From UHGV virus genome UHGV-0113213: a DNA stretch of 52,407 bases; one strand, given 5' to 3'. The notes below the pieces were generated by a model. It was given only the letters and a program-made list of their open reading frames with translations. It was not told the origin of the DNA and searched no databases. This document shows positions 584 to 47,223 of the stretch, one piece after another (positions within the stretch are counted from its first letter, which is position 1; every line of letters begins with the position of its first letter). The translations under genes were made by a program, and so were the position numbers. The DNA is from a virus.

Positions 584-627
584 CCATTTTGTGATCTGTG
601 TTACATTTCTGGCTTATACAAAATGTA
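584..627. promoter_or_regulatory. divergent promoter region: CRP-like palindrome (590-605) plus CCATTTTGT/TATACAAAATG motif copies
   Basis: TGTGATCTGTGTTACA fits TGTGA-N6-TCACA. About 45 bp is homologous to 12160-12191, upstream of the other lipoprotein moron. Confidence 0.45.
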
Positions 628-721: not shown

Positions 722-970
722 ATGAAAAACATGCTCAAAGTGGTATTATTCGCTGCGGCTGTTGCTCTTACTGGTTGTGCTGTTGACAAAGATGCTGCAT
801 TGCACAACCTGCCAAATAGCGGAGTAATTCCTCAAGAAATTGTCTATGATGCTAATGGTCATCTTGTCTATGACACTGAAAAACTTCCATATACTGGTCA
901 ATGGTGTCATGAACTAGATCACAATATGCGCCGCATCGGTAGCCCGTCGAATTGTGTAGCTAACTACTAA
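722..970 (+). CDS. small lipoprotein (moron; possible Cor-like superinfection exclusion protein)
   Basis: Signal peptide plus lipobox LTGC. Inserted between two tail fibre genes, with its own promoter and terminator. Confidence 0.55.
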   Translation: MKNMLKVVLFAAAVALTGCAVDKDAALHNLPNSGVIPQEIVYDANGHLVYDTEKLPYTGQWCHELDHNMRRIGSPSNCVANY

Positions 971-7504: not shown

Positions 7505-7522
7505 TTTCTCACCTTGTCATTC

Positions 7523-7558
7523 TGTGATCTGCGTCACGCTAAATCATACCAAAATGGA
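7523..7558. promoter_or_regulatory. CRP-like palindrome TGTGATCTGCGTCACG plus ATACCAAAATGGA motif
   Basis: The minus-strand reading gives TGgTATGAT, an extended -10 pointing into L. Confidence 0.4.
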
Positions 7559-7633
7559 TTGATCGCGGTTTTTACAATATGTATATTTTACTCAAACGGA
7601 AGCATAGTTAACAAAATGGCGCGGAGGTGCGTT

Positions 7634-7822
7634 ATGACTGAAAAGCTATGGAAGTTGACGGTATTCATGACAGACGGTAGGGAAAAGGTTATCGCCCTGT
7701 ATGACGACGAGGGTGAAGCATTGGTTGACGCGCTTTTACTTGCTGAGGATGACCGCCTTTTGGGATACCAGATCGAACCTGTCAAATATGAGGCTAACAA
7801 AAATGAAAAAATACAGTCTTGA
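7634..7822 (+). CDS. hypothetical small protein (moron gene A)
   Basis: GGAGG RBS. Paralogous to the N-terminal part of gene B (7803-8150). Confidence 0.5.
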   Translation: MTEKLWKLTVFMTDGREKVIALYDDEGEALVDALLLAEDDRLLGYQIEPVKYEANKNEKIQS

Positions 7823-8150
7823 TGTGTGGTTAAGTGGTAGCAAGGAGTGTTTCGGATTATTTGATAGCGAAGAAGTAGCCCTGGAAGAAGGCAGGATTCT
7901 TGAATGTAGTTTAGGCCATCCAGTGAAATATGCTGCTAATCCGGTACAGATAGTTGATGAGGTGGAAGATATGAACCCGAAAGATATTAATGGTAGCTTC
8001 ACTGCTTATTATGCAGATTCTATGGACCAGTCTTGCCCTGGTGAAATACACGCAAAAGGTTTCCCGGCTGACGATCCAGAAGCAAAACGCGAATACGAAA
8101 AAGCGGCGAAAGATTTCTGTATCGATAACCTTTCAGCATTCGATAAATAA
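7803..8150 (+). CDS. hypothetical protein (moron gene B)
   Basis: ATGA overlap with gene A; shares a ~50 aa domain with gene A. Confidence 0.5.
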   Translation: MKKYSLDVWLSGSKECFGLFDSEEVALEEGRILECSLGHPVKYAANPVQIVDEVEDMNPKDINGSFTAYYADSMDQSCPGEIHAKGFPADDPEAKREYEKAAKDFCIDNLSAFDK

Positions 8151-8159
8151 GGCGGCAAC

Positions 8160-8408
8160 ATGGGGCGGCGCAATCACGGTGATTATGTGTACACGTTGAA
8201 ACAGGCCGCCCGCCTCATCGGTTATCATGAACACGAATTTATTGATTTGCTGATTGAGCGCGGGATACTGTACCAGGTCTGTTTAACGCTGTACCCGAAA
8301 GCGAAATACCTACATGAAAAGTTATTCATCATCATGACGGATGAAAACCAGGTTAACCATTCATTCGTCACTGATAAGGGCGTTAATTATCTGCGTGATA
8401 ACTTATAG
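8160..8408 (+). CDS. hypothetical protein with possible HTH (moron gene C)
   Basis: YTLKQAARLIGYHEHEFIDLLIERGIL has a helix-turn-helix-like pattern. Confidence 0.4.
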   Translation: MGRRNHGDYVYTLKQAARLIGYHEHEFIDLLIERGILYQVCLTLYPKAKYLHEKLFIIMTDENQVNHSFVTDKGVNYLRDNL

Positions 8409-8534
8409 GTGACTGATTATAAAAATAAAAGTTTTGGCGCTAATAATAATGGGGTTGATAGTATTTGGCGTTCATGCTGTAGATCTGGACTGGAAAACGA
8501 TAGCAGAAAATATAGCATTAATGGAAATAGAATA

Positions 8535-8568
8535 AAAATAACCCCGCTTCGCGCGGGGTCGTGTTTAT
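8535..8568. terminator. bidirectional rho-independent terminator
   Basis: CCCCGCttcgcGCGGGG hairpin with flanking A/T runs. Confidence 0.7.
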
Positions 8569-8762
8569 ACGCCATCAACCAAAAATAAAACCTCCTTCCC
8601 TTCCCGGGATCTACACCCAACGTACCCATCACCAACGTCGTGAAGATACCATATATCGCCGTTGTCAGCTTTTACAGTAAGGTCGTTGATCTCATAGTCG
8701 TCAAACAATGTAAAAGCGTAAGTTTTGTCAACTACACAAGTCCCGTACATAACAACCCCCAT
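8565..8762 (-). CDS. hypothetical 65 aa protein
   Basis: TAATG coupling to M. Confidence 0.45.
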   Translation of the reverse strand: MGVVMYGTCVVDKTYAFTLFDDYEINDLTVKADNGDIWYLHDVGDGYVGCRSREGKEVLFLVDGV

Positions 8763-9115
8763 TAGCCAACAACTTGCTCAAACGTTGCGTTTAGCGTGTA
8801 CAAAGGCCCGTCTTTAGTCATACTCCATTGCCGACAGACAAAAAGCCTTTGCACGTTATCCATTGACGGCGACCAGTAAAAAGCCTCGACCGCGCCGCGC
8901 GCCCTCAAGAATGCTTCCGCCTGGATTGCTACGTTTCCACCATCACCACATCCGGCGCTACTGCCTTTAAACACCAGGGTGTAGCTATCAAGCAATGGAT
9001 TGATACCTTTTACCTGTCTTTGCTCATAACCATCGCCCAGCTTAACAACAGATACGTCTGGCTTCCTGGTCACGCTGTAGCTTCTTTGCGGCGTCCATCT
9101 GAACACTTCCGGCAT
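8762..9115 (-). CDS. M: minor tail protein M-like
   Basis: Aligns with lambda gpM (FRW.P....S....V.FGDGY.QR). Confidence 0.75.
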   Translation of the reverse strand: MPEVFRWTPQRSYSVTRKPDVSVVKLGDGYEQRQVKGINPLLDSYTLVFKGSSAGCGDGGNVAIQAEAFLRARGAVEAFYWSPSMDNVQRLFVCRQWSMTKDGPLYTLNATFEQVVG

Positions 9116-9129
9116 AAAACCCCCACAAG

Positions 9130-9172
9130 TTACATTTTGTATATATCTTTACGCGCTTCTACGCGAAAAATA
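9130..9172. promoter_or_regulatory. motif copy TTACATTTTGTATATA plus element TTTACGCGCTTCTACGCGAAAAATA
   Basis: The 25-bp element recurs with 2 mismatches at 21418-21442. Confidence 0.35.
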
Positions 9173-9200
9173 AGATCATTGTCACAATGATTATAGCTAG

Positions 9201-9213
9201 TTTACAAAATGGC
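9201..9213. promoter_or_regulatory. TTTACAAAATGGC motif copy
   Basis: Lies in the divergent region between M and the plus-strand moron. Confidence 0.35.
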
Positions 9214-9282
9214 TTCACATAGCACGCAACAAGATGTATATAGAAAGCAAGAAGAAAGTAGTACCAACGAAGGAGGCCCAAA

Positions 9283-9438
9283 ATGAAACGCTATGTAGTA
9301 GTAATGCTAAATAACGCATTCGAACAAGTGGAAATAGCAATCGTTAAGGGTTTCGACGACGCATTCAAATACGGTCAATTCATGATGAATGCGAAAGAAG
9401 ATGAATACCGGGACTTCTTCCTGAAGGCACTTAACTAA
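9283..9438 (+). CDS. hypothetical 51 aa protein (moron)
   Basis: Strong RBS GAAGGAGG; below the 60 aa ORF-track cutoff. Confidence 0.5.
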   Translation: MKRYVVVMLNNAFEQVEIAIVKGFDDAFKYGQFMMNAKEDEYRDFFLKALN

Positions 9439-9455
9439 GGATGATGGGGTGAGTT

Positions 9456-9710
9456 ATGAAACTGGTAGCGATTGACAGAAATCTGAAAGCACAGAAAAAC
9501 GCACAGGACCGGATCATCAAGAAAGGTAAGGAATTACTTAAAGCCTTTCTGAGAAAAGAAGTTTACCCCAAAAAGTTACGCGACGGTTACGGATACAAAA
9601 TGGATATCAATCTTGATTGGAGGCTGTTTAGCGAAGATTTGAAGGTTTGGTTAATTGTTGAGCACCGTGCCTATAACAAGTTATGTGGCGTGAAAGGCAC
9701 TCATAAGTGA
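9456..9710 (+). CDS. hypothetical basic 84 aa protein (moron; possible toxin-like partner)
   Basis: RBS present; K/R-rich; paired with the preceding gene. Confidence 0.45.
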   Translation: MKLVAIDRNLKAQKNAQDRIIKKGKELLKAFLRKEVYPKKLRDGYGYKMDINLDWRLFSEDLKVWLIVEHRAYNKLCGVKGTHK

Positions 9711-9764
9711 GTCGAGATATTCGAAAGGGGATATATCGCGCGGAATGGTCGTTTATAAATACGA

Positions 9765-9795
9765 AAAATAACCCCGGCATTGCACCGGGGTTTAG
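9765..9795. terminator. bidirectional rho-independent terminator
   Basis: CCCCGGcattgcaCCGGGG hairpin followed by a T-run. Confidence 0.7.
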
Positions 9796-9796
9796 T

Positions 9797-12139
9797 TTAT
9801 TTGCGGCGAGGTTGCAACATTCCGCCTGGTCTTTGAGATTCCCTTGTTATCATTTTCATGGCTACACGTTCCATTGTTAATTCAAGTCTGCGGCTGTCTT
9901 CGTCGCTGAATCCGTTCGTGGTCTGAATGCTGATACTGACAGGCATACTAATACCGCCACCGCCGCCAATATCACGGCCCGGAATAACTCTGCCGTTCTC
10001 GCCAGGGATCATATATTGATTGCCGTTAGATGTCTGGAATAGCTCCGGCCTGTTGTGTTCCCCTACGCGGTACATATTACCACCAATGACGCTACCACCA
10101 TTAAAGCGACCGCCGCCGAAAATTGACGTAGCCAGCGACATGATCGCAGTGAGCGCCGCCGAACCAGCCGCCGCCCAGCTACCGCCAGTTGACGCCGCAG
10201 TTGCCGCCGCTGCTGGGGCCGCCGCCGCAGCAATGCTTCCCTGAGCTGCTACCGCGCTTGCTGTTGTACTTGTTTGCGTGGCCTTGCTTTGTGTCTCCAT
10301 CATGATCTGATCTGCTATCCAGTTTGCAGCTATGTCTGAGAGTCTGTTACCGATATTGCCGAGTATATTGCTTCCTAAGTTAGCAAAAACATCACTCAAT
10401 GATTGAGTGCCGTTTAACAGGCCAACAAGCGCATTACTCATTCCGCCTTTAAGGCCATTAACACAATCACCGATAAGGCCGTTTGTGTCGCTTTGCGCCT
10501 GCCATTGTTCCCATTTCAGATCGCGGATCTGTTGCTCATAGGCTAACAATTCCTGTTTCTGTTGCGCTTCAGTAGCGCCCAGGTCTATAAGCATTTGCTT
10601 ACGGATGGCCCATTCATTTTGCGCCTGCTGGATGGGGTCAACTTCGCCTTTTAGCTGATCCATCGGGCTTACTATTTGTGACCATTTATCACGCAATTCA
10701 TCTACCGGAATTTGTGCTAATTCTTCTTTCAGTTCCTTGCCGATCCCTTTTTGCGCGGCGCGGTACTCAAGGAGCGTGATTTTACCCTGGGCAAATGCAG
10801 CATCAATGGCCTTGCCGTTCTCCAACGCTTTGCGCATGGCGGCGGCGTCTTTGTTGTACTGATCAGAAACGCTTATACCTTTGTCACCAAGCCGATCAGC
10901 TTCCGATTTCTTCTCTTTTTTCTGTTTTTTCGGCTTGTCTACTGGCTTGTCGAATCCGGTAATCGCTCCGTCATTGGCAGCATTCTGTTCATTTTTCCTT
11001 GCTTCTTCTGTAGCCTGGATTGCTGCGGTCAGATCATCCTGTAGTTGCATGACCTTGCCAACGGTCTTCCCGTATTTCTTCTCGTAGTTGCTGTTATATT
11101 CGTCGGTTTGCTCTCCTACTACCTCCTTCATCCATTTATAGCCATCCATTAGCGCCTTGATTGGCGTCACCATTGCGATGATCTTCTCTGCCACCTCTCC
11201 AGCCTTAACAGCCACATCATCAAACATGTCGATAAATTCGCTACCAGCCGTTTTGAGTGTGTCGAAGCAGGTTTTAGCGAATTTAGCGCCATCGCCAAGC
11301 CCTTTAACGCCTTTCGTGATCAAGTCGATAGCTGAAACAACGCCATCTGACACGCCAAAAAGATCATCCAACTGCTCAACAAGGCCCATAATTTCTACTT
11401 TAAGCTCATTGATAGCCATGCCGGATGTGCGCGGCAACTGAGCAAACTTATCGTTTGTTTCCTGCGTAGCCGCCTGTATTGCGTTAACCATCCTTTCAGC
11501 CGTGATCTTGCCGTCCAGCATTTCGGCGCGGAACTGGCCCATTGATAATCCCATATGGCGGGCCATTGTTTGTACGATGGTCGGCGTATTTTCAAGCAGG
11601 CTGTTAAATTCTTCGGCACGAAGAACACCGCCGTCGATAGACTGACGGAATTGACGCATTGAGTTAGACATCTGTTCCGCTGACGCGCCGCCTAATGCAC
11701 CCATTTTCTGAATAGTGCCAACCAGGTTAAGCAATTGCCCTTCCGTAGCGGAGGTGTTTTTTAGTGAGATAGCCAGGCCTTGCCATAATTCGCCAGTATC
11801 TTTCAGGCTCTGCCCCGTCTCCCTGGATATTGCTTTCAGGCCGTCGAAAACCCGTCCGGCGGACTCCGCATCGCCCGTAAGCATTTTGATTTTTACGCGA
11901 AGCATTTTTGCTTGCTCCGCCATATCCATAAATTGGCGCACAGCCTCCGCAGCAATTAGCAGATGGATAACCCTGGTCAGTGCCTTGATGGATGTTTTCA
12001 GGGTGTTTACCTGGCGGTCAGCCTGTTTTGCGCCGCGCTCTATACGATCAAAGGCCTGGTCTGCCTGTCGTTGTGCAACGAGAAGTTGACCAGTTTTCGC
12101 ATCAACTTCGTAATAAATTGTACCTACACTGGTAGCCAT
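9797..12139 (-). CDS. H: tail tape measure protein
   Basis: 780 aa, long alpha-helical region, Gly/Ala-rich C-terminus; sits between chaperone and M. Confidence 0.85.
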   Translation of the reverse strand: MATSVGTIYYEVDAKTGQLLVAQRQADQAFDRIERGAKQADRQVNTLKTSIKALTRVIHLLIAAEAVRQFMDMAEQAKMLRVKIKMLTGDAESAGRVFDGLKAISRETGQSLKDTGELWQGLAISLKNTSATEGQLLNLVGTIQKMGALGGASAEQMSNSMRQFRQSIDGGVLRAEEFNSLLENTPTIVQTMARHMGLSMGQFRAEMLDGKITAERMVNAIQAATQETNDKFAQLPRTSGMAINELKVEIMGLVEQLDDLFGVSDGVVSAIDLITKGVKGLGDGAKFAKTCFDTLKTAGSEFIDMFDDVAVKAGEVAEKIIAMVTPIKALMDGYKWMKEVVGEQTDEYNSNYEKKYGKTVGKVMQLQDDLTAAIQATEEARKNEQNAANDGAITGFDKPVDKPKKQKKEKKSEADRLGDKGISVSDQYNKDAAAMRKALENGKAIDAAFAQGKITLLEYRAAQKGIGKELKEELAQIPVDELRDKWSQIVSPMDQLKGEVDPIQQAQNEWAIRKQMLIDLGATEAQQKQELLAYEQQIRDLKWEQWQAQSDTNGLIGDCVNGLKGGMSNALVGLLNGTQSLSDVFANLGSNILGNIGNRLSDIAANWIADQIMMETQSKATQTSTTASAVAAQGSIAAAAAPAAAATAASTGGSWAAAGSAALTAIMSLATSIFGGGRFNGGSVIGGNMYRVGEHNRPELFQTSNGNQYMIPGENGRVIPGRDIGGGGGISMPVSISIQTTNGFSDEDSRRLELTMERVAMKMITRESQRPGGMLQPRRK

Positions 12140-12159
12140 GATTTAACCTCATGCAAAAA

Positions 12160-12219
12160 TGTGATCTGTGTATCTATTTTATACAAAATGGCTTTACTTC
12201 AACGACTCCATTTTGTATA
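12160..12219. promoter_or_regulatory. CRP-like half site plus 40-bp palindrome TATACAAAATGG-N16-CCATTTTGTATA
   Basis: Candidate promoter TTTACT-N17-TATAAG driving the lipoprotein gene at 12267. Confidence 0.45.
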
Positions 12220-12266
12220 AGGAAGCTAAAGGGAATGGTCAGTAAATCAAGTTAGCGTGGTGGGTT

Positions 12267-12926
12267 ATGAAACGGTTAGCAAAAGTGGCAATGATTGCGG
12301 CGGTATTGGGTCTGGTTGGTTGCAATGAGGATAATGAAAAAGCGCCTATAGTGACCAATCAAGAGCAACAAGCATTAGTAGAGAAAAATGCTAAATGGCT
12401 TGCAGAACAACAAGCAAAACAAGCCGCATACGATGCACAGTTAGAAAAAGAAAATGCTGGTAAACAGTGGCTTGTAGTTGAAAGAAAAGATGATATGCAG
12501 GACGCAAAAAACGTATTCCTTTTTGTGAAAGCAGAACAATTCAGCGGAAGTCTTGATGCTTTCCCGACACTGAAGGCACAGGATAAGAATAAACCGGTAT
12601 TAACAATCGCTTGCCAGGGTAATAAAACAAAAATGTTCGTAGCATGGTCACACCATGTAACTGACGCCGGGGACACTACTTATATTAACTACCGGATCGG
12701 CGTTCACAAAGCTGTAGCTACTGAGTGGTGGCGGTCAACTAATTATAAAGCTCTTGGATTATGGGACGGCAAAAAAGCCATCCCAATGATTAAAAAACTG
12801 GTTAACGAAAAACAATTCATCATTGAAGTAGTGCCGGAAGCTGGCGACATTGAGAAAGCAGTGTTTAACATTGATGGTCTTTATAACCACATCGACAAAG
12901 TGAAAAACGCTTGCAACTGGAATTAA
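12267..12926 (+). CDS. lipoprotein (moron)
   Basis: Signal peptide plus LVGC lipobox. Confidence 0.6.
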   Translation: MKRLAKVAMIAAVLGLVGCNEDNEKAPIVTNQEQQALVEKNAKWLAEQQAKQAAYDAQLEKENAGKQWLVVERKDDMQDAKNVFLFVKAEQFSGSLDAFPTLKAQDKNKPVLTIACQGNKTKMFVAWSHHVTDAGDTTYINYRIGVHKAVATEWWRSTNYKALGLWDGKKAIPMIKKLVNEKQFIIEVVPEAGDIEKAVFNIDGLYNHIDKVKNACNWN

Positions 12927-12936
12927 GGGGTAAATC

Positions 12937-13311
12937 ATGAAAAAAATAATCAAAGCGGTTCTCATTGGTGTTATGGCTTTAGCTCTTACAGGGTGCGCAA
13001 GATCAACTGATTTCGTTAAGTTAGCTGATAAAAATTTGCAAGTTGGAATGACTTGTGAGCAAGTGAATAAAATAATGGGGGAACCACAAAGAATCGAGCA
13101 TGACGGTAATTATAGTTATCACGTATGGTATTCAGTAACCAGCACGATAGGATTTACTTACATGGATGTTGAAGAATTATCCCCTTCAAGGGTTATCGCA
13201 AAGTTTGATAACTGCATCCTAAAAGAATGGAAAGATCGCAGTAAGGCAAAGTCTGTATACAATACAATCACACACAGTTCACCAGGTACAGCAATTAAAG
13301 ATTTCAATTAG
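12937..13311 (+). CDS. BamE/SmpA-OmlA-like lipoprotein (moron)
   Basis: LTGC lipobox; GMTCEQVNKIMGEPQ resembles the BamE motif. Confidence 0.5.
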   Translation: MKKIIKAVLIGVMALALTGCARSTDFVKLADKNLQVGMTCEQVNKIMGEPQRIEHDGNYSYHVWYSVTSTIGFTYMDVEELSPSRVIAKFDNCILKEWKDRSKAKSVYNTITHSSPGTAIKDFN

Positions 13312-14011
13312 CAAAACGCCCGGATCTACCGGGCTTTTCTTGCTCACGATTTTTCATTCTTTCTAGTGCCTTTTTAGCGGCCTCCATTTGCTCGTCATAA
13401 GCACGTTTATTTATGTGAATGTTTGGCTTGCTTTTCTCGTTTCTTTCGTCTGGCGGCGTTTTAGCGCGTACAGCGGCCCTATATCCGGTCATTGTCATAT
13501 TCCATGCTTCCGATTCTGACAAGCCCAGGTGAGCAACGGCAGAATAGACGAATTCAAGGACGTTAAAAGTCGGCTTATATTCCCCTTCCGGGATTTCCCC
13601 GGACTCTTCTTCCGGGCCATCACCAATAAGACCGTGGTACATGCAGTGCTGCGCAAGCGTGATGATATCCTCGATCGGCATTAATCCGGGCTTTAACTTT
13701 AACTTACCCGAAGGAGTAAACCAGCATTCGCCCAATAACGGGCCTATTTCGTCGTCTGAGCAACATTTCAGGATGTGCATTGATGTCTGAACTATTTCAC
13801 CATAACACCGCGCCAGAATGCGATTGCGTAGGTCTGGATCTGCTGGCAATCGTGATGGATATTTGCCGCCGTGGATAAGTGCGAAATATTCGACAAGCTC
13901 ACTATCGTTGCCGATTTTAGCCATCGCAGCAAAGCAAGGATTAAACTCATAGCGCTTACCGTTCACCACGGCAGCAAATTGTCCTGTACGAACATGGATC
14001 ATAGTATTCAC
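13304..14011 (-). CDS. tail assembly chaperone-like protein
   Basis: Lies between the major tail protein and the tape measure gene, the conserved G/GT position; no frameshift site identified. Confidence 0.45.
   Translation of the reverse strand: MNTMIHVRTGQFAAVVNGKRYEFNPCFAAMAKIGNDSELVEYFALIHGGKYPSRLPADPDLRNRILARCYGEIVQTSMHILKCCSDDEIGPLLGECWFTPSGKLKLKPGLMPIEDIITLAQHCMYHGLIGDGPEEESGEIPEGEYKPTFNVLEFVYSAVAHLGLSESEAWNMTMTGYRAAVRAKTPPDERNEKSKPNIHINKRAYDEQMEAAKKALERMKNREQEKPGRSGRFAN
13317..13342. terminator. rho-independent terminator
   Basis: CCCGGatctaCCGGG hairpin followed by CTTTTCTT. Confidence 0.6.
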
Positions 14012-14057: not shown

Positions 14058-14534
14058 TTATGCTGGCGGAACGTCGCCTACCGTTACCTTGCCAGCGCTT
14101 TCGCACTCAATAGACCAGGTGGAAACATCATCATGCGGATCTTCTTCTTTAAAGGAAGTGCAAAGGAATGGGCCTTCAGTTACGTCTACAGGAGAAACGA
14201 TCTTCAGCCATACATAAGGTTGTGATCCGGTGGTTTCACCTGGCGTAATTACGTGGCGTTTCAGCGCTTTCTGATTATGGATTTCTTCAGTGCGGGACAC
14301 ACCGTCGCCGGAGAAAGAAACGGATTTGTAAGTAACCATTGATTCTTTCGTGTAATCGGCTGATTTATCGGCGGTGGCGTCAGCGGTTTCCCATTCAACG
14401 GAAAGTGTTTTACCACGCATCATGCCTAACGCTTTGTACGCTTCAGCTTCCGGCTTCGCATTTGGACAAGCGATAGCGAAGAATACAGCAACGTCACGGC
14501 CTGTAAACGTGCCTTTTTCGCAAGTCTGAGACAT
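14058..14534 (-). CDS. major tail protein
   Basis: Position and size fit; a terminator follows. Confidence 0.55.
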   Translation of the reverse strand: MSQTCEKGTFTGRDVAVFFAIACPNAKPEAEAYKALGMMRGKTLSVEWETADATADKSADYTKESMVTYKSVSFSGDGVSRTEEIHNQKALKRHVITPGETTGSQPYVWLKIVSPVDVTEGPFLCTSFKEEDPHDDVSTWSIECESAGKVTVGDVPPA

Positions 14535-28612: not shown

Positions 28613-28674
28613 TTTATAACAAAATGGCACTGCCGAAACAATGCCATTTCGTAAACCTTGTGATACAGATCACA
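28613..28674 (-). promoter_or_regulatory. promoter TTGTTT-N17-TATAAA overlapping motif CCATTTTGTTATAAA; perfect CRP-like site TGTGATACAGATCACA at 28659-28674
   Basis: Read directly from the sequence. Confidence 0.5.
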
Positions 28675-34830: not shown

Positions 34831-34863
34831 CGCATTTCAGCGCTGCCGGATTTTTAAAGAGCA
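34831..34863 (-). promoter_or_regulatory. nut-like site: boxA TGCTCTTTAAAAATCCGG plus boxB-like hairpin CGCTGAAATGCG
   Basis: The boxA matches the nutR candidate (43322-43339) base for base over 18 nt. Confidence 0.55.
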
Positions 34864-34879
34864 TTTTGTTTGCTTGAAG

Positions 34880-34959
34880 TATACAAAATGGATACCCCCA
34901 AACAAGGCAAAAAGCGCCATTATGTGATCCGCATCACGCAATGATGCCATTTTGTAAAC
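34880..34959. promoter_or_regulatory. promoter region: TATACAAAATGGA ... CRP-like TGTGATCCGCATCAC ... CCATTTTGTAAAC
   Basis: Inverted motif pair flanks the palindrome. The minus-strand reading gives -10 TATACT. Confidence 0.45.
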
Positions 34960-38246: not shown

Positions 38247-38282
38247 CTTGTTTCCTCCGTGCCGTAAACCTCTTAATTTCAG

Positions 38283-38340
38283 TTTACAAAACGGATATGC
38301 GATCGCAATACAAAATGTATATTTATGTGATCGCAATCAC
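38283..38340. promoter_or_regulatory. motif copies TTTACAAAACGG / ATACAAAATGTA plus CRP-like TGTGATCGCAATCAC
   Basis: Read directly from the sequence. Confidence 0.4.
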
Positions 38341-38344
38341 GCTG

Positions 38345-40524: not shown

Positions 40525-40929
40525 TCAAAACGGGATATCGTCATCAAAGTCCATCGGCGGATTATTCCCGTTATTATTCTGCTGCTGCGGAGGCGCTTTC
40601 TGCTGCTGGCCTTGTTGGTTAACGTTCATGAATTCAAATTCGTTAACCGCCACTTCTACCGCCGTTCCCTTCGTGCCGTCGTTCCGGTCATATTGCCGAA
40701 CATCCAGGCGACCGCTTACCACTATTTTTCCACCCTTGCGGATATGTGGCGCTAATTTTTCCGCACGCTCACCAAATACCAGGCAAGTGACCCACATTGT
40801 CCGCTTATTATCGCCGTAGCCATTCGTTACAGCTAACGGAAAACTACCAATCGCTTTCCCGTTTTGTGTGTAGCGAACCTCCATATCATTACCGATATTC
40901 CCGCCCAGCGTGATTGAATTTAAACTCAT
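40525..40929 (-). CDS. ssb: single-stranded DNA-binding protein
   Basis: OB-fold pattern; Gln/Pro-rich linker; acidic tail DFDDDIPF. Confidence 0.85.
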   Translation of the reverse strand: MSLNSITLGGNIGNDMEVRYTQNGKAIGSFPLAVTNGYGDNKRTMWVTCLVFGERAEKLAPHIRKGGKIVVSGRLDVRQYDRNDGTKGTAVEVAVNEFEFMNVNQQGQQQKAPPQQQNNNGNNPPMDFDDDIPF

Positions 40930-41573
40930 TAACCCATCTCCCCGTTAAGCTCTGCTACCCGGATGTCATAAACATCTTTTGCCTTGATTCGATGTTCCGA
41001 TCCTTCCGGTAGTAATTTCCAGCATTTGCCAAATATTTCACGCAGCTTGTTAGCGTCCTGCGCTTTCGCTGCTGCATCACAGAAACGTGCTAATACTTCA
41101 TCAGGATTTGGCGGCGCTTTCTGCTGCTGTGGTTGTTGTTTTGGTGGGTTTTTCTGCTGGCGAGGCTGCTGGCCTGTCTGCTTAGCGTATGCGTCAGTAT
41201 CAGGATCTCGCGCATCATCAATGCAGAATAAACCGTTCAAAGCGTATTTTCGCGCGTAACTTGATGTCGCACCTGTTAGCTGGCTTGCGTCCATTCCCTT
41301 CTTGCTTTCTTCTTCCCTGGCGTAAGCCGTTACCGCTATTTCGTCTTCACCGTCGCTTAGCGTCGCCGTAGCTTTCACATAATAGCGATTGCCGATCAGG
41401 ACAATTTCATCGCTTACAGTCAGCGTAATACTTTGAAGCAGTGGTTTAACCGCCTCTAAAATATCCTCCGCCGACCTGTAATTATATCCACCAAAATTAT
41501 TACGCTGATTTTTCGGCGCGTTCAGCGTTTGCTGAATCGTCCATAGCTTTTTATGTAACTCTGTTTTCACCAT
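40929..41573 (-). CDS. Erf-family single-strand annealing protein
   Basis: GGYNYRSAEDI...YARKYALNGLF. Confidence 0.6.
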   Translation of the reverse strand: MVKTELHKKLWTIQQTLNAPKNQRNNFGGYNYRSAEDILEAVKPLLQSITLTVSDEIVLIGNRYYVKATATLSDGEDEIAVTAYAREEESKKGMDASQLTGATSSYARKYALNGLFCIDDARDPDTDAYAKQTGQQPRQQKNPPKQQPQQQKAPPNPDEVLARFCDAAAKAQDANKLREIFGKCWKLLPEGSEHRIKAKDVYDIRVAELNGEMG

Positions 41574-41689: not shown

Positions 41690-41719
41690 AATGTCATCTC
41701 CGGATGTTTACATTTTGTA

Positions 41720-42010
41720 TTAATGGTAGCGGACTTTATCCAGGGGTTTTTCCCCTAAATGGCGTGGTTGCGTTGCGTGGTAGTAGCTGCCGCTTTCATT
41801 TTCCGTATACCATTTTACTGATCCTTTGCGACGTTCTTTAATGCTATTTGGTTTGCATCTTTCCTCGTTTGCAAATCGAATAGCTTTATCCACATTGTCT
41901 GTTTTATTGATTGCAGGTGATGATTTTCTTTCGTTTTCTCTTTTTATCCTTCTGCGTTCCCTGGCATTCATTTTGCTATCACATTTACCATATATAATTG
42001 TAACGCTCAT
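41720..42010 (-). CDS. N: N-like antitermination protein
   Basis: Arginine-rich motif NARERRRIKRENERK; first gene downstream of the pL candidate and a nutL-like boxA. Confidence 0.55.
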   Translation of the reverse strand: MSVTIIYGKCDSKMNARERRRIKRENERKSSPAINKTDNVDKAIRFANEERCKPNSIKERRKGSVKWYTENESGSYYHATQPRHLGEKPLDKVRYH

Positions 42011-42317: not shown

Positions 42318-42349
42318 AGGAAGTTGCTTTTGTTACCTGCGCCCTTCCT

Positions 42350-42387
42350 TTGACTCGCAATATACGCCCCGTAAAACATCGAGTCAA
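42350..42387 (-). promoter_or_regulatory. pL candidate TTGACT-N17-TATATT inside an inverted repeat TTGACTCG-N22-CGAGTCAA
   Basis: Near-consensus sigma70 promoter on the minus strand. Motif copy TCCATTTTGTATAC lies just upstream. Confidence 0.5.
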
Positions 42388-42477
42388 TCCATTTTGTATA
42401 CTTTTTTAAAATATTTTATATGCCATTGATATTTAAATAATAAATAACGTTTTCTGTTTACGTTTTGGTGTTTTCCA

Positions 42478-43158: not shown

Positions 43159-43189
43159 GTCGCTACCCTATAACCTCAAAAAGTTTGAT

Positions 43190-43282
43190 GCAAGTCACAA
43201 AACGTGTATTTTAAGCCTTGATCTTAAAATTCCATTTTGTAAACTTGCAGACAAGGTAAGGCCATACTTGCAAAGACGCAAG
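43190..43282. promoter_or_regulatory. OR-like region: pR candidate TTGATC-N16-TAAACT with operator-like palindromes CTTGCAGACAAG and CTTGCAAAGACGCAAG; motif copy TCCATTTTGTAAAC
   Basis: The CTTGC/GCAAG half-site recurs four times between cI and the first rightward gene. Confidence 0.4.
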
Positions 43283-43321: not shown

Positions 43322-43355
43322 TGCTCTTTAAAAATCCGGTGTCGCTGCGAAGCGA
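43322..43355 (+). promoter_or_regulatory. nutR candidate: boxA TGCTCTTTAAAAATCCGG plus boxB hairpin TCGCTGCGAAGCGA
   Basis: Consensus boxA (CGCTCTTTA-like), with a stem-loop 3 nt downstream. Confidence 0.55.
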
Positions 43356-46071: not shown

Positions 46072-46104
46072 ATATACAAAATGTAAACATGAGGAAATAA
46101 CAAC

Positions 46105-47223
46105 ATGTCACAAAGAAAGATAAGCGATGAGCAATTGATCGCTGAATATAACAACGGTTTAACGTACAAGCAGATCGCTGAAAAATATGGCATGTCAAAA
46201 CGCAACGTCGAGCGCCTGGGCGCAAAGCTGGCGAAACGCGGTTTAATATCCACGCGTCGCGCGCCGGGTTTTGGCGTCAATGGCGAGTCATTGCTAGTTG
46301 ATAAGGATGGCAATGTGATTATGCGCTGGATTAAAACAGCCCGTGATCGCGATGAAATGGAAAGGCTAATGCAAGCGGCTTGCGATGCTTTCACGGAAGA
46401 CATGCCACGCGCTGAGGCTGTGCCAGTGCCGGAAATTGATTTCCAAAAAAGCCTGGCTCTTTATCCGGTATTCGATCTGCATATCGGTGCGCTTGCGCAT
46501 AAAGCTGAATGCGGTGAGAGCTACGACACCGGGATCGCCGAACGTGTGTTAAATGACTTCTTCGACTACGCGGTGGGCGCTGCGCCAATGTCTGAAAAGG
46601 CTGTTTTGTTGTTAGGAGGTGATATTCTTCACACTGACGGCCTGTTACCAGTGACGCCATCAAGCAATCACGTCCTGGATTGCGATTCACGCTACGCAAA
46701 ACTGGTTTACGTGGCGATCCGGTCGGTCCGGCGTGCGGTCGGGAAGATGTTACTAAATCATAAGTATGTCGAGATCCAGACATTATCCGGTAATCACGAC
46801 CAATCAGGGATGATCTGGCTACGTGCGGCGCTGGCGGCTTTTTACGAAGATGAACCGCGCGTAACTGTTGATGTGTCCCCTGCTATCGTTCACCACACAC
46901 AGTACGGCAAAACATTCCTTGCTTACCACCACGGACACACCATCAAAAAACCAGAAAATTTGTTGTCTGCCTGCGTCTCTGACTGGCGGGAGGATTTCGG
47001 CAAGTCGTCGGCGGTTTACGCTCATTGCGGACACTGGCATCACCAACGGCTGATTGAATCATCGTTAGGCGTTGTTGAGTATCACGGCACGTTAGCTGGC
47101 AAAGACGCTTATTCAACAAATGGCGGCTGGCGGTCGCGTCGGCTGGCTGCGGTAATAATTTACAGTCCTGATCATGGGGAAATCGGGCGCTTTGTTTATT
47201 ACCCTGAATATTCCATTTTGTAA
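46105..47223 (+). CDS. HTH plus calcineurin-like metallophosphoesterase fusion protein
   Basis: N-terminal HTH (LTYKQIAEKYGMSKRNVERL). Phosphoesterase motifs DLHIG, GGDILH, GNHD, HHGH, GHWHH. Confidence 0.5.
   Translation: MSQRKISDEQLIAEYNNGLTYKQIAEKYGMSKRNVERLGAKLAKRGLISTRRAPGFGVNGESLLVDKDGNVIMRWIKTARDRDEMERLMQAACDAFTEDMPRAEAVPVPEIDFQKSLALYPVFDLHIGALAHKAECGESYDTGIAERVLNDFFDYAVGAAPMSEKAVLLLGGDILHTDGLLPVTPSSNHVLDCDSRYAKLVYVAIRSVRRAVGKMLLNHKYVEIQTLSGNHDQSGMIWLRAALAAFYEDEPRVTVDVSPAIVHHTQYGKTFLAYHHGHTIKKPENLLSACVSDWREDFGKSSAVYAHCGHWHHQRLIESSLGVVEYHGTLAGKDAYSTNGGWRSRRLAAVIIYSPDHGEIGRFVYYPEYSIL

What the first reader, a model, noticed from the sequence alone, without database searches (positions are those of the whole stretch)
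12267..13311. Two lipoprotein morons (one BamE-like) between chaperone and tape measure, with a promoter homologous to the fibre-region lipoprotein
Both proteins have lipoboxes. The second contains a BamE/SmpA-OmlA-like GMT..QV...G.P segment. The promoter region (12160-12191) shares about 45 bp, including TGTGATCTGTGT and TTATACAAAATG, with the region upstream of the 722-970 lipoprotein. The three lipoprotein genes are therefore likely co-regulated lysogenic-conversion or exclusion genes.
Basis: partly seen in the sequence, partly recalled or inferred. Interest (0 to 1): 0.5.

Follow-up and report, generated by a model that had tools for sequence, protein, structure and literature searches.

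The report
Two-lipoprotein accessory cassette in prophage tail
Two real, exported lipoprotein genes sit backwards inside the tail genes of a temperate E. coli phage, in a fixed slot that swaps cargo between related phages; their function is untested, and the shared "promoter" is a phage-wide element rather than one specific to lipoproteins.

Summary
12267-12926 and 12937-13311 are two conserved, co-oriented genes under purifying selection, and both have canonical lipoboxes. They lie on the opposite strand between the DUF6246 gene and the tape-measure gene of an mEpimmI-family (mEp021-like) temperate coliphage. Gene 2 has a BamE/OsmE/BLIP fold but fails the BamE family threshold. The interval is a fixed cargo socket. 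An almost invariant promoter-like module and a terminator embedded in the end of the DUF6246 gene flank at least eight cargo combinations in related phages, mostly envelope proteins. The two shared 12-mers are real. However, they belong to a repeated module (a CRP-like TGTGA palindrome plus ACAAAATGG) that also precedes non-lipoprotein cargo and the phage's own early-operon promoters. Co-regulation specific to lipoproteins is therefore not supported. The fibre-region lipoprotein is a close homologue of Lpp010, an experimentally shown exclusion protein. The most likely role of the cassette is envelope protection or superinfection exclusion, which is inferred and not shown. It is an ordinary moron with an interesting cargo.

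The parts
12160..12175 (+). CRP-like half palindrome TGTGATCTGTGTATCT. The left half-site TGTGA is perfect and the right half is degenerate. Its centre lies about -60.5 from the inferred transcription start.
   Evidence: TGTGAT is invariant in 12 socket variants, while the central 6 bp vary.
12179..12191 (+). Left copy of the repeated motif, TTATACAAAATGG, directly upstream of the -35.
   Evidence: It is invariant in relatives except for one A>T change in L036.
12193..12198 (+). -35-like hexamer TTTACT (TTCACT or TTTGCT in relatives).
   Evidence: Inferred by homology with the other modules. The consensus scan did not call it.
12208..12220 (+). Inverted copy of the motif, CCATTTTGTATAA, spanning the end of the spacer and the -10.
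12216..12221 (+). -10-like hexamer TATAAG (TATAAA in relatives), 17 bp after the -35. It has no T at the last position. The inferred start is near 12228.
   Evidence: The consensus scan did not call it.
12267..12926 (+). Gene 1: a 219-aa lipoprotein of the VasI/TagO family. It has a lipobox LVGC with Cys19, a long helix at residues 31-63, and an IalB-like beta-sandwich with a conserved Cys116-Cys216 pair.
12937..13311 (+). Gene 2: a 124-aa lipoprotein with a lipobox LTGC (Cys20), a BamE/OsmE/BLIP-type alpha-alpha-beta fold and conserved Cys40 and Cys93. The family is confined to these prophages.
13318..13343 (+). Intrinsic terminator GCCCGGATCTACCGGGC followed by TTTTCTT. It is strong on the + strand and weak on the - strand. 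It lies inside the last codons of the DUF6246 gene.
   Evidence: The same arrangement is annotated in mEp013 and mEp021.
13304..14011 (-). Upstream late gene, DUF6246, at the position of a tail assembly chaperone. Its stop codon overlaps the end of gene 2 convergently.
9797..12139 (-). Tape-measure gene. Its start codon lies 21 bp from the palindrome.
   Evidence: The homologue is annotated as tape measure in mEp021, and Pfam TMP_3 hits the homologues.
584..626 (+). Paralogous upstream block, CCATTTTGTGATCTGTGTTACA...TTATACAAAATGT, between the tail-fibre gene start (544, -) and the Lpp gene.
722..970 (+). Fibre-region lipoprotein, a type-C Lpp exclusion protein homologue (91.5% identical to mEp010 gp116).
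   Evidence: Experimental evidence is in PMC11893012.

Best explanation
Shown. The interval is an opposite-strand accessory ('moron') operon. It occupies a fixed cargo socket between the DUF6246 gene and the tape-measure gene of an mEpimmI-family temperate coliphage. The socket itself is resident and conserved. On the left is a promoter-like module: a TGTGA half palindrome, TACAAAATGG, -35 TTTACT, 17 bp ending in CCATTTTG, and -10 TATAAG. On the right is an intrinsic terminator buried in the end of the DUF6246 gene. The cargo between them is exchanged among related phages. In this window the cargo is two genes for Sec/Lsp-type lipoproteins. One is a lipoprotein version of the VasI/TagO family: a beta-sandwich on a helical tether. 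The other is a small BamE/OsmE/BLIP-fold protein.

Inferred. Both proteins are acylated and, having no Asp at +2, are sorted to the outer membrane facing the periplasm. They act independently of each other, because they assort independently among phages. They most likely make the envelope of the phage-carrying cell refractory to incoming injection machinery, that is, superinfection exclusion or a related protective function. The neighbouring Lpp and most other cargo of this socket, which are also envelope proteins, probably do the same. Transcription probably starts near 12228 from a weak sigma-70 promoter helped by an activator bound at about -60. Host CRP is the best candidate for that activator.
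For: Genes are real and exported:
- ORFs and lipoboxes are present.
- The lipobox and Cys pairs are invariant in homologues.
- dN/dS is 0.07-0.26.
- Both proteins match PHROG families.

Moron anatomy:
- The genes lie on the opposite strand, and GC is 0.38-0.43 against 0.45-0.52 in the flanks, with skew reversal.
- A terminator follows them.
- In a more distant relative, the DUF6246 and tape-measure genes abut with nothing between them (L035).

Socket with swapped cargo:
- The promoter block is nearly identical in 12 variants and occurs once per contig in 32 IMG/VR contigs.
- The cargo behind it is TagO+p2, TagO+106-aa protein, TagO alone, a 138-aa secreted protein with or without p2, a 59-aa TM protein+p2, a 100-aa 2-TM protein, 116/119-aa secreted proteins, and a 245-aa lipoprotein.
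- Most of this cargo is targeted to the envelope.

Protein 1:
- Pfam VasI scores 58.3 bits against a cut-off of 26.5.
- The family motifs are conserved.

Protein 2:
- hhalign gives 96.9% probability to a BamE-domain lipoprotein.

Precedents:
- The Lpp lipoproteins of this same phage group exclude phages (PMC11893012).
- A protein with a VasI-like fold, SDIC4B, alone gives 10-200-fold phage protection (bioRxiv 10.1101/2024.01.28.577318).

Promoter:
- Five modules share the same geometry: palindrome, 17-18 nt, -35, a 16-17 nt spacer ending in CC(A/G)TTTTG, and -10.
- The orthologous palindromes in mEp021 keep their half-sites and change only the central spacer.
Against: - No homology to any characterised exclusion or defence protein. 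PADLOC gives nothing, PHROG families are 'unknown function', and there is no PDB sequence match.
- The function of VasI/TagO is listed as unknown even in T6SS (PMC13584744).
- The -10 lacks the conserved final T, the palindrome has one good half-site only (7/10), and the consensus scan calls no promoter here.
- The CCATTTTGTA motif is shared with the early promoters at 43232 and 42389. If it is the repressor operator, the cassette is silent in the lysogen.
- Structural models are only medium confidence (pLDDT 72 and 70, shallow alignments).
- No expression or phenotype data exist for these two genes.
Confidence: 0.5

Rival explanations
1. Same cassette, different timing. The promoter is under the phage repressor, with the CCATTTTGTA motif as operator, so the lipoproteins are made early after infection or induction rather than in the lysogen. 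They would act like T5 Llp, blocking receptors or entry routes during the lytic cycle to prevent superinfection and loss of progeny on debris.
For: The (C/A)CATTTTGTA motif overlaps the spacer and -10 of the early promoter at 43232. It abuts the -35 of the strong promoter at 42389(-), and it is the only long element common to both early promoter regions (TCCATTTTGTAWACTT). There are 23 copies genome-wide, and ACAAAATGG occurs 15 times against 0.8 expected. Conservation of a spacer sequence is more typical of an operator than of a promoter core.
Against: In mEp021, which has the same immunity, the copy at the 43232-type promoter carries substitutions (ACAGAATGG). The motif is asymmetric, with variable orientation and spacing, unlike operators of CI-type dimers. 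The degenerate copy inside the 42389 spacer is not conserved. The opposite-strand promoter-terminator arrangement is the classical layout of prophage-expressed morons (own knowledge).
Confidence: 0.2
2. The two lipoproteins protect the lysogen against contact-dependent antibacterial attack rather than phages. They would act as orphan periplasmic immunity or shielding against type VI secretion effectors or other envelope-targeting toxins.
Against: VasI/TagO is not known to be an immunity protein. The match to TIGR03360 is far below the equivalog cut-off, 47 against 124 bits. There is no adjacent effector. The BamE/BLIP fold is generic. The socket's other cargo has no link to T6SS.
Confidence: 0.13
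3. One reading: a lipoprotein-specific shared promoter co-regulates three lysogenic-conversion lipoprotein genes (722-970, 12267-12926, 12937-13311).
For: The exact 12-mers are shared in the same order. All three products are lipoproteins. One is a homologue of a proven exclusion protein.
Against: The same elements precede non-lipoprotein cargo at 7523 and 9180 and internal or early promoters at 28674, 34938, 38341 and 43184. The spacing between the two blocks differs by half a helical turn. No core promoter follows the block upstream of 722. In relatives the same socket drives non-lipoprotein cargo.
Confidence: 0.1
4. Host-fitness or virulence conversion unrelated to exclusion. An example would be envelope remodelling, adhesion or invasion, or stress tolerance, as with Bor/Lom of lambda, IalB of Bartonella, or OsmE/BamE-like envelope stress proteins.
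Against: The similarity is at fold level only, with 9% identity to IalB. The cassette is rare, in 14-15 of 5426 complete genomes, and is always in this phage family. There are no virulence-associated neighbours.
Confidence: 0.07

Closest known systems
Morons of lambdoid phages (HK97/HK022 definition; lambda bor and lom; HK97 gp15) - own knowledge
   Same: Extra genes are inserted between two late genes that are adjacent in a relative (L035). They have their own promoter-like element and terminator, a deviating base composition and envelope-located products.
   Different: Here the promoter and terminator are resident parts of the slot and only the coding cargo is exchanged. The promoter is a paralogue of the phage's own early-operon promoters. 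Expression in the lysogen is not shown.
Lpp exclusion lipoproteins of mEpimmI phages (Lpp021, Lpp010; PMC11893012), Cor of phi80/N15 and Llp of T5 (PMC9586334)
   Same: These are small outer-membrane lipoproteins encoded on the opposite strand within the tail or host-range module of a siphovirus. The window's own 722-970 gene is a type-C Lpp.
   Different: Proteins 1 and 2 have no sequence similarity to Lpp, Cor or Llp. They sit next to the tape-measure gene, not the receptor-binding genes. No exclusion assay has been done, and the paper does not discuss this slot.
Ltp of Streptococcus phage TP-J34 (Bebeacua et al. 2013, cited in PMC3952083)
   Same: A prophage lipoprotein that blocks DNA injection by targeting the tape-measure protein. 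This is a plausible analogy for a lipoprotein gene placed beside a tape-measure gene.
   Different: It comes from a Gram-positive host, has an unrelated fold and is encoded in the lysogeny module. The analogy is by function only and was not tested here.
VasI/TagO, accessory protein of type VI secretion clusters (PF11319, TIGR03360)
   Same: The domain matches the Pfam model end to end (residues 55-218, 58.3 bits). The Cys pair and the ALGLW..G..AIP, TP and F.I.GL motifs are shared.
   Different: It is not in a T6SS cluster. It is far below the NCBIfam equivalog cut-off. The canonical signal peptide plus C...RLxCYD motif is replaced by a lipobox and a 30-residue helix. It forms a separate small clade (230 bits or more, against 128 bits or less for the next full-length or near-full-length relatives).
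SDIC4B, a defence protein with a VasI-like fold from Serratia/Enterobacteria islands (bioRxiv 10.1101/2024.01.28.577318)
   Same: A VasI-related protein outside T6SS clusters that alone reduces phage plating.
   Different: SDIC4B shows fold similarity only, is chromosomal and is associated with BrxR.
BamE / OsmE / BLIP (SmpA_OmlA-type fold)
   Same: A lipoprotein with the VGMT..QV....G.P helix-turn and an alpha-alpha-beta fold.
   Different: It is below the Pfam and NCBIfam cut-offs. It has an extra C-terminal segment and a Cys pair, and the family is restricted to these prophages. Nothing suggests it joins the BAM complex.

Membership tests
Bacterial lipoproteins (Lgt/LspA substrates) | A basic N-terminus, a hydrophobic core and a lipobox [LVI][ASTVI][GAS]C, with the Cys within about the first 15-35 residues. 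| tested here: met
   Protein 1: MKRLAK-VAMIAAVLGLV-GC19. Protein 2: MKKIIK-AVLIGVMALAL-TGC20. The lipobox G and C are invariant in homologues.
Bacterial lipoproteins (Lgt/LspA substrates) | Actual acylation and globomycin-sensitive cleavage, and outer-membrane sorting (no Asp at +2). | not testable with these tools
   The +2 residues are Asn and Ala. Outer-membrane sorting is inferred from the +2 rule (own knowledge).
VasI/TagO (Pfam PF11319) | Score above the Pfam gathering threshold over the whole domain. | tested here: met
   58.3 bits against 26.5; residues 55-218 match profile positions 25-184 of 184. Precomputed PF11319 is on all homologues.
VasI/TagO (NCBIfam TIGR03360 equivalog) | Score above the equivalog cut-off, meaning the same function as T6SS VasI. 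| tested here: not met
   47.3 bits against 124.2, although PGAP labels the gene TagO in E. coli genomes.
VasI/TagO as a T6SS accessory gene | Encoded within a type VI secretion gene cluster. | tested here: not met
   Always found in the tail module of mEpimmI-type prophages or phages.
BamE / SmpA_OmlA (Pfam PF04355) | Score above the gathering threshold. | tested here: not met
   18.9 bits against 23.2, residues 33-51 only. OsmE NF008423 scores 17.8 against 65.
BamE / SmpA_OmlA (Pfam PF04355) | Two helices packed on a small antiparallel sheet (BamE/OsmE/BLIP-repeat fold). | tested here: met
Moron (accessory transcription unit in a late operon) | Inserted between genes that are adjacent in related phages. 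| tested here: met
   The DUF6246 and tape-measure genes abut in L035. Cargo differs among close relatives.
Moron (accessory transcription unit in a late operon) | Own promoter and terminator. | tested here: inconclusive
   The terminator is clear. The promoter is inferred from conservation and paralogy, but the consensus scan does not call it and there is no transcript data.
Moron (accessory transcription unit in a late operon) | Expressed from the repressed prophage. | not testable with these tools
   No transcript data. The motif shared with early promoters leaves this open.
Superinfection-exclusion lipoproteins (Lpp/Cor/Llp type) | Homology to a characterised exclusion lipoprotein. | tested here: not met
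   Proteins 1 and 2 show none. By contrast, 722-970 is 91.5% identical to Lpp010.
Superinfection-exclusion lipoproteins (Lpp/Cor/Llp type) | Exclusion phenotype when expressed. | not testable with these tools
   This is an experimental test.
CRP class I activated promoter | A TGTGA-N6-TCACA site centred near -61.5. | tested here: inconclusive
   At 12160 the core match is 7/10 with one perfect half-site, and the centre is about -60.5 from an inferred start. Paralogous modules score 9-10/10 at the same distance. Such sites occur 9 times against 1.4 expected. CRP binding was not tested, and a phage regulator is not excluded.

The most novel reading that the evidence does not exclude
The phage-borne, lipid-anchored VasI/TagO clade may show what this orphan T6SS accessory family does: act as a periplasmic barrier or decoy against incoming tube or needle machines (phage tail tube and tape measure, or a T6SS spike). 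It would be carried in a plug-in socket whose promoter, like the phage's early-operon promoters, is read by host CRP at a class I position. Both accessory-gene expression and the phage's early transcription would then be tied to the host's catabolite state.
Probability: 0.1. Interest if true: 0.65.

Novelty: new member of a known kind. Interest (0 to 1): 0.35.

Why it matters
As it stands, this is a well-formed prophage moron, a known kind of element. Three points make it useful.

1. It gives a simple single-gene test system for VasI/TagO, a family with about 1,900 sequence clusters and no known function. A related fold was recently reported to block phages.
2. It shows that in this abundant gut coliphage family the accessory slots are sockets. 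Each has a resident promoter and terminator, the cargo is exchangeable, and most of the cargo is envelope proteins. This is a convenient catalogue of candidate exclusion or protection genes.
3. The socket promoter is a paralogue of the phage's own early-operon promoters and carries CRP-like palindromes at a fixed distance. This is a testable lead on how this phage group wires host physiology into its transcription.

Tried and rejected
- Searches of PDB by sequence gave nothing for either protein or for the protein 2 profile.
- PADLOC defence models gave no hit.
- Rfam over 11900-13500 gave only chance-level hits.
- The 13-bp inverted repeat at 12179-12220 forms a hairpin in the late (- strand) mRNA. 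The region is no more stable than shuffles (z -1.05), and a relative breaks the inner pair without compensation. An RNA element was therefore rejected in favour of DNA sites.
- A scan of GTDB genomes for relatives of protein 1 found none with tight patterns.
- A fold search of protein 1 against viral models returned only uncharacterised proteins with low TM-scores.
- I tried to identify the Rep operator by repeats and by comparison with mEp021. The result was inconclusive.
- Considered and rejected by eye:
  - Sigma-E, sigma-32 and sigma-28 promoter types (no match to the key positions).
  - Spanin function (a lysis cassette lies elsewhere at about 26 kb, and the size and composition are wrong).
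  - Virion or tail-assembly role (the products carry export signals).
  - Obligate two-protein complex (the genes assort independently).
- The automatic pairwise alignment of the two upstream regions mis-registers the TGTGATCTGTGT block. The comparison was made from the sequences themselves.
Full report
**Observation**

12267-12926 encodes 219 aa and 12937-13311 encodes 124 aa, both on the + strand. Each begins with a basic stretch, an 11-residue hydrophobic core and a lipobox: MKRLAK-VAMIAAVLGLV-GC19 and MKKIIK-AVLIGVMALAL-TGC20. In alignments of their homologues the lipobox Gly and Cys are invariant, as is a second pair of cysteines in each mature part (C116/C216 and C40/C93). Pairwise dN/dS against homologues of 53-94% identity is 0.07-0.26, so these are maintained genes and not chance ORFs. 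They are 10 nt apart, each behind a G-rich ribosome-binding site. A single intrinsic terminator follows at 13318-13334, so they form one transcription unit.

The shared DNA is also real. TGTGATCTGTGT is exact at 590 and 12160. With up to one mismatch there are four sites against 0.18 expected. TTATACAAAATG is exact at 614, 12179 and, inverted, 12209. With up to one mismatch there are ten sites against 0.61 expected. The two blocks are 12 nt apart upstream of 722 and 7 nt apart upstream of 12267.

**The phage**

The window is a temperate coliphage of the mEp021 group, called mEpimmI. The flanks of the cassette match mEp010, mEp013, mEp021, mEp044, mEp554 and MagusPhagus. This group was described in 2025 (PMC11893012). 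It has a CI-like repressor, an N-like antiterminator Gp17 with three nut sites, and 'Lpp' exclusion lipoproteins in the structural cluster.

On the - strand the tail tube gene (14058-14534), a DUF6246 gene (13304-14011) and the tape-measure gene (9797-12139) follow one another. The cassette is inserted, in the opposite orientation, between the last two. DUF6246 is a 'chaperone' by position only.

**A socket, not just an insertion**

Across relatives, the 80 bp from the tape-measure start codon to the beginning of the cargo is almost invariant: TGTGAT......CTATTTTATACAAAATGGCTTTACTTCAACGACTCCATTTTGTATAA(A/G)GA(A/G)GCTAAAGG. At the other end, a terminator lies inside the last codons of the DUF6246 gene. 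In the window the stop codons of gene 2 and DUF6246 overlap convergently.

A pattern drawn from the promoter block occurs exactly once in each of 32 IMG/VR contigs of about 50 kb. The cargo behind it differs:
- TagO-like + protein 2 (7 contigs)
- TagO-like + a 106-aa cytoplasmic protein (5, plus one contig that ends after the TagO gene)
- a 61%-identical TagO-like gene alone
- a 138-aa protein with a cleavable signal peptide (6), or that protein + protein 2
- a 59-aa membrane protein + protein 2 (mEp013)
- a 129-aa protein + a 64%-identical protein 2
- a 100-aa two-helix membrane protein (5)
- 116- and 119-aa secreted proteins
- a 245-aa lipoprotein whose signal peptide resembles that of protein 2

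In a more distant relative the DUF6246 and tape-measure genes abut directly, and a 53%-identical TagO-like gene sits one slot further on (L035). The cassette has lower GC (0.38-0.43 against 0.45-0.52) and reversed skews.

This fits the classical moron definition, with one refinement. The promoter and terminator belong to the slot, only the coding cargo is swapped, and most of the cargo is directed to the envelope. Genes 1 and 2 assort independently, so they are not an obligate pair. In complete E. coli genomes the cassette is rare (14-15 of 5426) and always lies beside DUF6246. [quoted passage not shown]

**Protein 1**

Pfam VasI (PF11319) matches residues 55-218 end to end at 58.3 bits, against a cut-off of 26.5. 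The NCBIfam equivalog TIGR03360 scores only 47.3 bits against 124.2. An exhaustive HMMER search finds 1,869 clusters at E<=0.001. The phage clade (230 bits or more) is sharply separated from the rest. Apart from two fragmentary sequences of about 100 residues (168 and 128 bits), the nearest relatives score about 120 bits or less.

A 2026 review lists the function of TagO/VasI as unknown (PMC13584744). A preprint reports that a protein with a VasI-like fold, SDIC4B, found outside T6SS clusters, alone gives 10-200-fold protection against phages.

**Protein 2**

The family is tiny. Only E. coli and Shigella prophage proteins are found, down to 64% identity. The next hit in 5.8 billion sequences is a Sphingobium 'BamE domain-containing' lipoprotein at E=3e-3. 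hhalign aligns that protein to residues 8-72 with 96.9% probability.

**The 'promoter'**

The shared 12-mers are two pieces of a repeated module. A scan for CC(A/G)TTT(T/C)G next to a -10-like hexamer, with a -35 and an upstream palindrome, returns five modules of identical geometry:

| Position (strand) | Palindrome | Gap (nt) | -35 | Spacer (nt) | -10 |
|---|---|---|---|---|---|
| 12160 (+) | TGTGATCTGTGTATCT | 17 | TTTACT | 17 | TATAAG |
| 28674 (-) | TGTGATCTGTATCACA | 17 | TTGTTT | 17 | TATAAA |
| 34938 (-) | CGTGATGCGGATCACA | 17 | TTGTTT | 16 | TATACT |
| 38341 (-) | CGTGATTGCGATCACA | 17 | TTGCGA | 16 | TAAACT |
| 43184 (+) | TTTGATGCAAGTCACA | 18 | TTGATC | 16 | TAAACT |

The last module is followed by a nut-like boxA/boxB and is an early promoter. 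The 34938 module lies just upstream of a second boxA (34851-34862, - strand).

By eye, two further opposite-strand cargo slots in the tail operon start the same way:
- 7523: TGTGATCTGCGTCACG, 20 nt, TTGATC-17-TATATT
- 9180: TGTGACAATGATTATA, 18 nt containing TACAAAATGG, TTCACA-17-TATATA

These two slots encode small cytoplasmic proteins, not lipoproteins.

TGTGA-N6-TCACA with at most one mismatch occurs 9 times against 1.4 expected. ACAAAATGG occurs 15 times against 0.8 expected. In mEp021 the orthologous palindromes keep both half-sites and differ only in the central spacer, which is the signature of a protein-binding dyad. Its centre falls about 60.5 bp upstream of the inferred starts, the class I position of CRP, and the sequence fits the CRP consensus. 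CRP is therefore my best guess, but a phage regulator is not excluded.

Several caveats apply to the module at 12160:
- It has only one good half-site.
- Its -10 lacks the final T.
- The consensus scan does not call it.
- Upstream of 722 the palindrome and motif are conserved in relatives, but no core promoter follows.

The 12160 and 28674 modules are especially close. They share about 85 bp, including the inverted TACAAAATGG 26 bp upstream and TATAA(A/G)GAAGCT(A/G)AAG downstream.

The shared sequence therefore reflects a phage-wide promoter or regulatory design, not a lipoprotein regulon.

The meaning of the (C/A)CATTTTGTA motif (23 copies) is unresolved. It could be a promoter core or the repressor/Cro operator. 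It is the only long element common to both early promoter regions, yet one copy is mutated in mEp021, which has the same immunity. If it is the operator, the cassette is an early gene rather than a lysogenic-conversion gene.

**Mechanism**

Shown: the anatomy of the socket, the export signals, the family and fold assignments, and the independent assortment of cargo.

Inferred:
- Both products are acylated. With Asn and Ala at +2 they go to the outer membrane (the +2 rule, own knowledge).
- They act in the periplasm or outer membrane of the phage-carrying cell.

The most likely role is protection of that cell's envelope against incoming injection machinery. The reasons are:
- The socket's cargo is overwhelmingly envelope proteins.
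- The neighbouring opposite-strand lipoprotein 722-970 is 91.5% identical to Lpp010, which excludes mEp010, mEp044, mEp554 and lambda.
- Lipoproteins that block receptors (T5 Llp, PMC9586334) or target the tape measure (TP-J34 Ltp, cited in PMC3952083) are established.
- A VasI-like fold has been linked to phage defence.

I put about 0.5 on the whole statement. The anatomy is near certain, and the exclusion or protection function is about 0.4. The rivals are the same function with early rather than prophage expression, protection against T6SS or other envelope toxins, and a host-fitness or virulence role.

**Novelty**

This is a new member of a known kind, a moron. It has a noteworthy cargo, the lipoprotein clade of VasI/TagO, and a tidy socket architecture. 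It is not surprising to a phage biologist, but it offers a simple way to test what VasI/TagO proteins do.

**What led nowhere**

- No PDB sequence hits.
- No PADLOC hits.
- No Rfam family.
- No significant RNA structure.
- The viral fold search returned only uncharacterised proteins.
- The operator question stayed open.

Noticed in passing
window 28613-28674 (-), 34878-34938 (-), 38281-38341 (-), 43184-43245 (+), with 12160-12221 (+): Five promoter-like modules share identical geometry: a CRP-like palindrome, 17-18 nt, -35, a 16-17 nt spacer ending in CC(A/G)TTTTG, and -10. The palindrome centre lies about -60.5 from the inferred start. In mEp021 the orthologous palindromes keep their half-sites and vary only in the central spacer.
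   Followed up: partly
window ~560-970, ~7514-8600, ~9130-9790, 12140-13311: There are four opposite-strand cargo slots inside the - strand tail operon. Each opens with a TGTGA-type palindrome plus ACAAAATGG next to the start codon of the downstream late gene. Only the first and last slots encode lipoproteins. The middle two encode small cytoplasmic proteins of unknown function.
   Followed up: partly
window 722-970 (+): The fibre-region lipoprotein is 91.5% identical to mEp010 gp116 (Lpp010, type C), which was shown experimentally to exclude mEp010, mEp044, mEp554 and lambda. More distant homologues occur in CAjan-like (Seuratvirus) phages.
   Followed up: yes
window 43323-43355 (+) and 34851-34862 (-): Nut-like elements are present: boxA GCTCTTTAAAAA followed by a short hairpin (TCGCT-GCGA-AGCGA at 43342-43355). 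Each lies just downstream of one of the palindrome-bearing promoters. They probably correspond to nutL and nutR2 of the mEpimmI paper. A further hairpin, CTTGC-AAAGAC-GCAAG, lies at 43267-43282.
   Followed up: no
window 9175-9191: A perfect 17-bp palindrome, ATCATTGTGACAATGAT, overlaps the CRP-like site of the third cargo slot, about 60 bp upstream of the minor tail gene start (9115, - strand).
   Followed up: no
window 9130-9144 (-), 41708-41722 (-), 46072-46086 (+): A variant of the motif, (A/T)ATACAAAATGTAA(A/C), lies 15-20 nt upstream of the ribosome-binding sites of three genes (8762-9115, 40929-41573, 46105-47223). Its role is unknown.
   Followed up: no
window 13304-13343: The cassette's terminator hairpin is encoded within the last codons of the DUF6246 gene (…PGRSGRFAN*). 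The stop codons of gene 2 (13309-13311) and DUF6246 (13304-13306) overlap convergently. The T-run is good only on the + strand, so late transcription should read through.
   Followed up: partly
window 42338-42402 (-): A strong consensus-like promoter, TTGACT-17-TATATT, points towards the N-like Arg-rich gene 41720-42010. GTATACAAAATGGA abuts its -35. The promoter and the motif are conserved in mEp021, although the spacer between the -35 and -10 differs there.
   Followed up: partly
L002 3232-3290 and L003 3240-3330 (mEp021, MagusPhagus), same socket: In phages carrying the 138-aa secreted cargo, a short ORF (MKN(V)YYRPNEHEHYADFIEEMLKALKNK) lies between the socket promoter and the cargo gene. 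It could be a leader peptide or a separate small gene.
   Followed up: no
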